Positions 56,715 to 57,017 of a stretch of DNA of 64,000 nt are shown here, one piece after another. The stretch is from Octopus vulgaris. Taxonomy: Eukaryota. Positions within the stretch are counted from its first letter, which is position 1; the number at the start of each line of letters is the position of its first letter. The notes beneath the pieces are model-generated. The model searched no databases, was not told where the DNA came from, and was given only the letters and a program-made list of their open reading frames with translations. Where the stretch lies: the NCBI GenBank assembly GCA_951406725.2, contig OX597833.1:69936001-70000000 (forward strand), read 5' to 3'. The translations under genes and the position numbers were made by a program.

Positions 56715-57017
56715 ACTTTCTTTTATTAGCCACACAGGGCTGAATACAGAGGGGACAAATACAAATGCAGAGCTTTTCTTTTTCGAGGGTGGAAAAAATA
56801 AAAAATGTAAGATTGCGATCAAAAGGGATCGAGAGGAGGAAAAAAAGGAAAAAAAAAGAAAATCGTGTATCACAGAAATAATGGTGTAAACATTGATATA
56901 ACAAGATTGGGTTCATCCGTGGGAAGAAAAGCCTACAGAAATGACCACGGGAACCCCAGTCAGGGAGGAAATAAACACATGAGGTCAAAAATGCTCTCTT
57001 TCTTTCTTTTTTACGAT

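What the first reader, a model, noticed from the sequence alone, without database searches (positions are those of the whole stretch)
56715..56760. SINE family 2 shares its 3' terminus with the Tx1 LINE: candidate SINE/LINE partnership
Seen: LINE C end TTTGTCCCCTCTGTATTCAGCCCTGTGTGGCTAATAAAAGAAA versus SINE (43022-43063) TTTGTCCCCTCTGTGTTTAGCCCCTTGTGGGTAGTAAAGAAA, 36 of 43 identical by hand alignment. The SINE copy at 20277 ends TAATAAAGAAACATAT, identical to the ends of LINE B and D. Known: stringent-type SINEs borrow the 3' end of their mobilising LINE; shared tails with L1/Tx1-clade elements are uncommon compared with CR1, L2 and RTE. Inference: this SINE is or was mobilised by a Tx1 relative, yet its copies here are not in GATA repeats, implying a non-specific sister LINE or relaxed targeting in trans.
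Basis: partly seen in the sequence, partly recalled or inferred. Interest (0 to 1): 0.8.

Follow-up and report, generated by a model that had tools for sequence, protein, structure and literature searches.

The report
Octopod SINE with Tx1-type LINE tail
A very abundant short jumping element, in what is likely an octopus genome, ends in nearly the same 43 letters as a long jumping element that sits in GATA repeats, so it likely borrows the copying enzyme of that element's lineage, yet it lands in ordinary DNA rather than in GATA repeats.

Summary
Observation confirmed. The last 43 bases of a full-length L1-group LINE (56717-56759, minus strand) match the end of a tRNA-headed SINE at 36 of 43. 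The match is flush with both 3' ends, holds for the seven-copy consensus (0 of 1000 shuffles reach it), recurs in two copies of a second LINE subfamily (33 of 42), and is absent from three other SINE tails. Contigs of four public runs (three organisms) carry the same majority tail. All four LINE copies abut (TATC)n arrays; SINE flanks are heterogeneous, AT-rich and carry 11-15 bp duplications. The SINE differs from both LINE subfamilies at the same five positions, so the tail most likely came from a third, sister subfamily that I could not find. Not shown: mobilisation, a conserved hairpin (folding is not significant), Tx1 membership by named references, and absence of a better match in another LINE clade (no genome or LINE library held). 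In the papers read, L1-clade tail pairs are known only from maize and Chlamydomonas, and the one Tx1-SINE link (SINEU) rests on shared targets, not tails. Verdict: new variant of a known arrangement.

The parts
56717..56759 (-). 3' terminal 43 bases of LINE C, shared with the SINE; holds an intact AATAAA
56716..62866 (-). LINE C, full length, L1 group (Tx1-like), between two (TATC)n arrays; 5' UTR about 200, 3' UTR about 300 bases, no poly(A) tail
60873..62660 (-). ORF1 of LINE C, 595 aa, one CCHC knuckle (Pfam zf-CCHC E 0.002, under the cut-off), low-complexity ends
57018..60453 (-). ORF2 of LINE C: AP endonuclease, reverse transcriptase, zf-RVT; broken by frame changes near 59260 and 57284 and a stop at 57938-57940
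55784..56359 (-). LINE B, 5'-truncated copy of a second subfamily; tail 55786-55827 matches the SINE at 33 of 42
62906..64000 (-). LINE D, 3' part, 98% identical to B, 84% to C in ORF2; tail 62908-62949
54601..54916 (-). LINE A, internal ORF2 fragment with (TATC)n on its 5' side; its 3' end is missing
54917..55783 (.). (TATC/TGTC)n array between LINE B and LINE A
56366..56714 (.). (TATC/TGTC)n array between LINE C and LINE B
62867..62905 (.). short (TATC)n spacer between LINE D and LINE C
42835..43065 (+). SINE copy: tRNA-like head (A-box-like at 42845, B-box-like at 42909), conserved body, tail module from about 43001 whose last 42 bases (43022-43063) match the LINEs
43066..43256 (+). second unit of the same insertion, same body, different tail that does not match the LINEs
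20278..20510 (-). SINE copy with AATAAA; no target-site duplication found
25957..26383 (-). two SINE units in one insertion, 11-base duplication
28640..29062 (-). two SINE units in one insertion, 12-base duplication
30682..30914 (+). SINE copy, 15-base duplication

Best explanation
The SINE ends in the same 43 bases as a lineage of L1-group LINEs that sit in GATA repeats; it likely took this end from a sister subfamily of that likely Tx1 lineage, whose reverse transcriptase would recognise the end and copy the SINE into ordinary AT-rich DNA. Steps. (1) Shown: shared, 3'-flush tail. (2) Inferred: direction LINE to SINE, by template switch onto a tRNA-headed SINE whose tail is an exchangeable module. 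(3) Inferred: the LINE protein binds this tail (stringent recognition) and primes reverse transcription at a nick, leaving the 11-15 base duplications seen. (4) Inferred: the working partner is a third subfamily with the SINE's version of the tail and a loose target choice, not LINE B, C or D.
For: Shared tail, end to end, beyond shuffles. Three other SINE tails or families score 18-22 against the same LINEs, the level of shuffles. In contigs of runs X2, X3, X18, X13 no listed variant in 43022-43063 exceeds about a third of depth, so the window tail is the family majority in three organisms (40 rows shown, 59 hidden). Three common SINE variants go towards LINE letters: 43055 G>A 19-31% (gives AATAAA), 43029 C>T 11-25%, 43038 T>G 1-7%; two others (43034 G>A, 43053 T>C) do not. 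All 3 LINE ends keep AATAAA, a Pol II signal, while most SINEs have lost it: fits LINE to SINE. The SINE sides with LINE C at 4 columns, with B at 1 plus the gap, and differs from both at 5 (one artefact column corrected by hand): an outgroup-like third tail. Tails B/C are 37 of 43 alike while the rest of their 3' UTRs aligns only in patches. Further subfamilies exist: proteins at 75-79% identity in the same clade. A sister SINE swaps its tail at 43000-43002 in all four runs. 3' loose ends at 43065 and 43070 (420/253, 510/338, 395/277, 29/14 contigs) have AT-rich, low-agreement (0.35-0.46) consensus, no TATC repeat. Precedent: stringent pairs share tails and the ORF2 protein binds the tail (Hayashi 2014, PMC4176376, passages).
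Against: The sister LINE was not seen: no loose-end cluster at the tail's 5' border among the 24 rows shown (633 hidden). No hairpin support: tail folding z -0.2 (SINE majority), -1.8 (C), -0.8 (B); the joint fold keeps 2 pairs and no two-sided change; the short stems of SINE and LINE are in different registers. The match is short (43 bases, 79-84%). Target-specific Tx1 enzymes are expected to carry passengers to their own target, as SINEU does (Kojima 2015), which this SINE does not show. No LINE library could be searched for a better match. Tx1 label not tested with named references.
Confidence: 0.55

Rival explanations
1. The GATA-targeting LINEs themselves (or their direct ancestors) move the SINE, and targeting is lost in trans, for example because in cis a read-through TATC stretch on the LINE RNA pairs with the nicked target, which the SINE RNA lacks.
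For: LINE ends run straight into (TATC)n with no poly(A). One SINE copy ends like B and D over 16 letters. LINE C is young and widespread: 18 of 24 listed runs hold half or more of its words, four organisms. Recognition may be loose enough to accept five differences.
Against: Five fixed differences from both subfamilies; at 43045 the LINE letter is at 0.3-2.5%, background level. Target choice is mainly set by the endonuclease (Kojima 2015 citing Takahashi and Fujiwara 2002). B and D are 2% apart, SINE copies 5-9% from their majority, so B/D look younger than the SINE wave.
Confidence: 0.17
2. The tail is homologous but the working partner is of another clade: either the SINE keeps a Tx1-derived end as a relic and is now moved by another LINE, or SINE and Tx1-like LINE both took this end from a third LINE.
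For: No hairpin conservation shown. Many copies run on past the shared end into the SINE's own head sequence (loose-end peak at 43070; 3 of 5 insertions are tandem units), so the LINE-like stretch is not always terminal. One insertion joins both tail types. Octopus genomes hold active RTE, R4, CR1 and L1-Tx1 families (PMC13282606 table).
Against: The commonest end (43065) is in register with the LINE ends. The tail is kept as the majority in three organisms. No other LINE is in the window, so nothing positive supports a third source.
Confidence: 0.17
3. Reverse direction: an ancestor of the LINE subfamilies gained its end from a SINE copy inserted at, or recombined onto, its 3' end.
For: The SINE is far more abundant (131,370 contigs laid in one run). 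Its tail module is about 20 bases longer than the clear match.
Against: No body or head sequence of the SINE occurs in the LINE 3' UTRs. The LINEs keep an intact AATAAA that most SINEs lack. B and C share LINE-only sequence directly upstream of the tail.
Confidence: 0.08
4. Chance likeness of T-rich ends with a poly(A)-signal-like finish.
For: Short match in an AT-rich, low-complexity genome.
Against: 0 of 1000, 0 of 2000 and 0 of 10000 shuffles; control tails at shuffle level; match at the very end of both elements.
Confidence: 0.02

Closest known systems
Stringent SINE/LINE pairs with a shared 3' tail (UnaSINE1/UnaL2, CR1, RTE, Tad1 pairs; Ohshima 2012 PMC3472496, Ohshima 2013 PMC3747384 Table 1, Hayashi 2014 PMC4176376)
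   Same: tRNA-type head, separate body, short LINE-like 3' end flush with the LINE's end.
   Different: The donor is an animal L1-group, likely Tx1, element; none such is in the 58 pairs listed. No stem-loop with compensating changes could be shown here.
L1-clade tail pairs: maize ZmSINE2/3 with LINE1-1_ZM; Chlamydomonas SINEX-3_CR with L1-1_CR
   Same: L1-group LINE with a conserved last 45 or so bases shared with a SINE.
   Different: Plants and algae only; their LINEs are not described as target-specific in the passages read. Here the LINE is microsatellite-bound and lacks poly(A).
SINEU and Tx1-Mar of crocodilians (Kojima 2015, PMC4494074)
   Same: A SINE tied to a Tx1-clade LINE.
   Different: Mirror image: SINEU shares the target but no LINE sharing the SINEU-1 3' end was found; this SINE shares the end but not the target. 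SINEU has snRNA heads and poly(A).
Microsatellite-targeting Tx1 families Kibi (TC)n, Koshi (TTC)n, crocodilian (TTCC)n/(TTTC)n families (as described in Kojima 2015)
   Same: L1-group two-ORF element inserted in tandem in a simple repeat.
   Different: Target here is (TATC)n, not among those named in the passages read; relation by tree not tested.
Octopus tRNA-Deu and tRNA-Core SINE classes (Marino 2022, PMC8967140); OK, OR1, OR2 SINEs (Ohshima and Okada 1994, not read)
   Same: Abundant tRNA-headed SINEs of octopuses; this family is probably one of them. Its body resembles the Nin/Deu domain (recalled, no call).
   Different: No partner LINE is named for them in what I read; identity with a named family could not be tested.

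Membership tests
tRNA-derived SINE | short, interspersed, multi-copy, non-coding | tested here: met
   about 230 bases, 8 units in the window, 60,594-140,557 contigs laid per DNA run
tRNA-derived SINE | [quoted passage not shown] | tested here: inconclusive
   A-box-like at 42845 and B-box-like at 42909, 64 bases apart; ARAGORN and Rfam find no tRNA
tRNA-derived SINE | target-site duplications | tested here: met
   exact 11, 12, 15 bases in 3 of 5 insertions (random pairs reach these in 12, 10, 7 of 2970); one degenerate, one none
Stringent SINE/LINE pair | shared 3'-terminal sequence at consensus level | tested here: met
Stringent SINE/LINE pair | conserved stem-loop with compensating changes | tested here: inconclusive
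   4-pair stems can form in both but in shifted register; z-scores not significant; no two-sided change
Stringent SINE/LINE pair | best tail match among all LINEs of the genome; overlapping ages | not testable with these tools
   no genome held; no related DNA in viral, prokaryote or metagenome contigs
Stringent SINE/LINE pair | tail-dependent mobilisation by the LINE protein | not testable with these tools
   needs a cell assay
L1 group LINE | ORF2 with AP endonuclease, RT closest to L1, C-terminal zinc finger | tested here: met
   Pfam PF03372, PF00078, PF13966; PDB best hit human L1 ORF2p E 3e-45 against R2 1e-20
Tx1 clade | RT groups with named Tx1 elements in a tree | not testable with these tools
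   no named Tx1 sequence among fetched proteins; quick tree of 84 rows places LINE C with Argonauta, sister to a clade with a cuttlefish protein, apart from limpet, lancelet, sea cucumber and fish relatives
Tx1 clade | preference for a repeated target | tested here: met
   4 of 4 copies abut (TATC)n; one locus only, so not independent sites
Tx1 clade | ORF1 with RNA-binding domains and CCHC knuckle rather than the vertebrate L1 type (feature recalled) | tested here: met
   CCHC motif at aa 424-440; atlas neighbours are CCHC and RRM-type proteins at 0.88-0.92, a lead only; no L1 ORF1 family hit
MetaSINE | 66-base Meta domain after the head | tested here: not met
   by eye the body does not resemble BivaMeta-SINE1 in the supplement; three body motifs absent from that supplement. 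No alignment was run.
Nin-DC / Deu SINE | Nin/Deu central domain | not tested
   resemblance recalled; no reference sequence could be read

The most novel reading that the evidence does not exclude
The first animal L1-group SINE/LINE pair with a shared tail: a target-specific Tx1 lineage reads its RNA stringently and drove one of the largest SINE expansions of octopus genomes, and the very enzyme that puts the LINE into GATA repeats scatters the SINE, because targeting depends on the RNA carried and not on the endonuclease alone.
Probability: 0.15. Interest if true: 0.85.

Novelty: new variant of a known kind. Interest (0 to 1): 0.55.

Why it matters
SINEs fill about 11.6% of the Octopus vulgaris genome (PMC13282606) and no partner LINE is named in the papers read. 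This tail names a candidate engine for one large family. It also bears on an open model: that L1-group LINEs began as stringent readers of their 3' end and relaxed later (Ohshima 2012), for which only plant and algal pairs were known. An animal Tx1-type pair would be a direct test case. The split between a GATA-bound LINE and a scattered SINE with the same end makes it testable whether target choice is lost by enzyme change in a sister family or by the RNA carried.

Tried and rejected
Own genome: none held. Tail pattern in viral, prokaryote and metagenome contigs: 0 matches each; ORF2 C-terminal alignment in metagenome contigs: 233 pattern hits, none confirmed. So no further LINE 3' ends could be read. 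Read laying on the SINE tail did not list a loose-end cluster at the tail border; most rows were hidden and two runs were saturated, so this is no proof of absence. MetaSINE reading, my first guess, dropped. Conserved hairpin: not supported. tRNA and Rfam scans negative. Named Tx1 references sought in protein names and the ESM Atlas: none. The tree is the quick version; the careful search did not finish. Scan look-ups by sequence and place found nothing. A shared insertion signature was considered: 4 of 4 duplications begin purine-purine-pyrimidine-A-T, but this is post hoc, n is 4, and it is out of register with the LINE junctions; not used. In one search the tally mis-dropped one base, making 43056 look different; corrected by hand.

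Full report
Observation. The last 43 bases of the element at 56716-62866 (minus strand; 56717-56759) align with 43022-43063 at 36 identities, 6 mismatches and 1 gap. A majority sequence of the seven window copies that carry this tail (91-95% identical to it) gives the same alignment, at the last bases of both elements: score 47 against the whole 6151-base LINE, best of 1000 dinucleotide shuffles 40, best on the opposite strand 26. LINE B and D, a second subfamily, match at 33 of 42 (score 39; best of 2000 shuffles 30 and 31). Tail-only tests gave 0 of 10000 for each. Controls (two other SINE families, one of them also as its tail alone, and the alternative tail at 43165-43260) scored 18-22 against LINE C and B. 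A scan of the window finds the tail only at 7 SINE ends and 3 LINE ends.

The LINE. LINE C is full length: ORF1 (62660-60873, 595 aa) with one CCHC knuckle, and ORF2 (60453-57018) with AP endonuclease, reverse transcriptase and zf-RVT, broken in three places. Its RT is closest to human L1 ORF2p among solved structures (E 3e-45; R2 1e-20). The best named relative is from Argonauta hians (69%); in a quick tree of 84 RT regions LINE C groups with it and two unnamed proteins, sister to a clade holding a cuttlefish protein (P0018 and any row under 240 aligned residues left out). An octopod host is therefore inferred. Four copies (A-D) lie in tandem, each abutting (TATC)n; B and D are 98% identical, C and D 84% in ORF2. 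The three intact ends carry AATAAA and no poly(A). The Tx1 label rests on L1-group RT, knuckle-type ORF1 and repeat targeting; no named Tx1 sequence was available, so it is inferred. LINE C is held at half or more of its words by 18 of 24 listed runs from four coded organisms; one may be the window's source.

The SINE. About 230 bases: a head with A- and B-box-like motifs (no tRNA call), a body, and a tail module from about 43001. Five insertions hold eight units; three have exact duplications of 11, 12 and 15 bases, one a degenerate one, one none. None is in a GATA array. The body is not the Meta domain by eye; a Nin/Deu likeness is recalled only. Marino 2022 names tRNA-Core and tRNA-Deu as the main octopus SINE classes.

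Beyond the window. Contigs of four runs (X2, X3, X18 and the probable RNA run X13; three organisms) were laid on 42960-43095 at 80% likeness: 131,370, 140,557, 60,594 and 2,024 contigs. Of 99 variant rows 40 were shown. Common variants: 43055 G>A 19-31%, 43029 C>T 11-25% and 43038 T>G 1-7% move towards LINE letters; 43034 G>A 17-21% and 43053 T>C 11-14% do not. The LINE letter at 43045 is at 0.3-2.5%; those at 43039, 43046 and 43052 are not among the rows shown. Depths are contig means, not copy numbers. 3' loose ends peak at 43065 and 43070 in all four runs, with AT-rich consensus of agreement 0.35-0.46 and no TATC repeat; a minority in GATA arrays would not show. Loose ends at 43000-43002 show a sister SINE with another tail. 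No cluster appeared at the tail's 5' border, where a LINE with the exact SINE tail would leave one, but only 24 of 657 rows were shown.

Reading. Of 42 columns, SINE, B and C agree at 32; the SINE sides with C at 4, with B at 1 and the gap, and differs from both at 5 (one artefact column corrected). B and C tails agree at 37 of 43. The SINE tail thus looks like a third branch of the same tail family, as old as or older than the B/C split, while SINE copies are only 5-9% from their majority. I take the donor and working partner to be a sister subfamily; proteins at 75-79% identity show that others exist, though their hosts and UTRs are unknown. Direction LINE to SINE is inferred from the intact poly(A) signal in the LINEs, the lack of SINE body in LINE UTRs, and the exchangeable tail. 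Against: no hairpin conservation (z -0.2 to -1.8 for the SINE majority and LINE tails; 2 consensus pairs, no two-sided change), a short match, no partner seen, and no library to exclude another clade.

Known or new. Ohshima 2012 (PMC3472496, passages): 58 pairs, three with L1 tails; Ohshima 2013 (PMC3747384, passages and Table 1 whole) lists them as maize and Chlamydomonas, none Tx1, none cephalopod. Kojima 2015 (PMC4494074, passages): SINEU is tied to Tx1-Mar by target, no LINE shares the SINEU-1 end; named microsatellite targets are (TC)n, (TTC)n, (TTCC)n, (TTTC)n. Kojima 2018 (PMC5786205) and Martelossi 2024 (PMC11481361; partners CR1, CR1-Zenon, L2, Nimb): passages; the word Tx1 does not occur in their main text. 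Also seen as passages: PMC13282606, PMC4758252 (plus supplement search), PMC4824008 (plus part 1 of 4 of its supplement and a search), PMC3531059, PMC8967140, PMC5804259, PMC9004415, PMC5753468, PMC4176376 (its 'TX1' hits are mutant names). Ten searches found no report of this pair. Not seen: Ohshima and Okada 1994, Kojima and Fujiwara 2004, Albertin 2015 (not held), the SINEBase supplement, supplements of the octopus repeat papers, and Repbase or Dfam entries; any of these may name the SINE or note the tail. Earlier scan notes from other genomes describe similar candidates; unchecked.

Verdict. Real feature; a known arrangement with an uncommon donor clade and an unexplained split in targeting. 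New variant of a known kind; interest 0.55.

Noticed in passing
window 54601-64000: Four LINE copies of two subfamilies in tandem, each abutting (TATC)n: a GATA-repeat-targeting L1/Tx1-type family; this target is not among those named in the Kojima 2015 passages read.
   Followed up: partly
window 26196-26215, 28812-28830, 43060-43085: In 3 of 5 insertions the SINE tail runs directly into a stretch from the middle of the SINE's own head, giving tandem units inside one duplication; many copies in public runs end five bases into that stretch (43070). Template jumping or a dimeric master copy are both possible.
   Followed up: partly
window 43066-43256: Sister SINE with the same body and a different tail, swapping at 43000-43002; abundant in all four runs; does not match the LINEs, so it may use another partner.
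   Followed up: partly
window 452-887, 5953-6378, 46018-46430, 53127-53571 and more: A second, more numerous SINE family of about 430 bases with a central microsatellite and short 3' tandem repeats; no match to the LINE ends.
   Followed up: no
window 4413-4579, 20933-21131, 31360-31679, 35143-35473: A third tRNA-headed SINE family; no match to the LINE ends.
   Followed up: no
window 20511-20600: The SINE copy at 20278-20510 is joined at its 5' end to what looks like the head of another SINE and has no duplication.
   Followed up: no
window TSDs at 26383, 29061, 30667, 42817: All four duplications begin purine-purine-pyrimidine-A-T, like the five bases after the SINE end; may reflect priming by short pairing. 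Post hoc, n = 4.
   Followed up: partly
window 56360-56366 and 54601: LINE B has an extra run of T at its truncated 5' junction; LINE A has lost its 3' end.
   Followed up: no
protein cluster of P0184: A limpet (Patella caerulea) relative at 40% identity has 27 members, many with neighbouring locus tags on one contig, suggesting another tandem, target-bound family.
   Followed up: no
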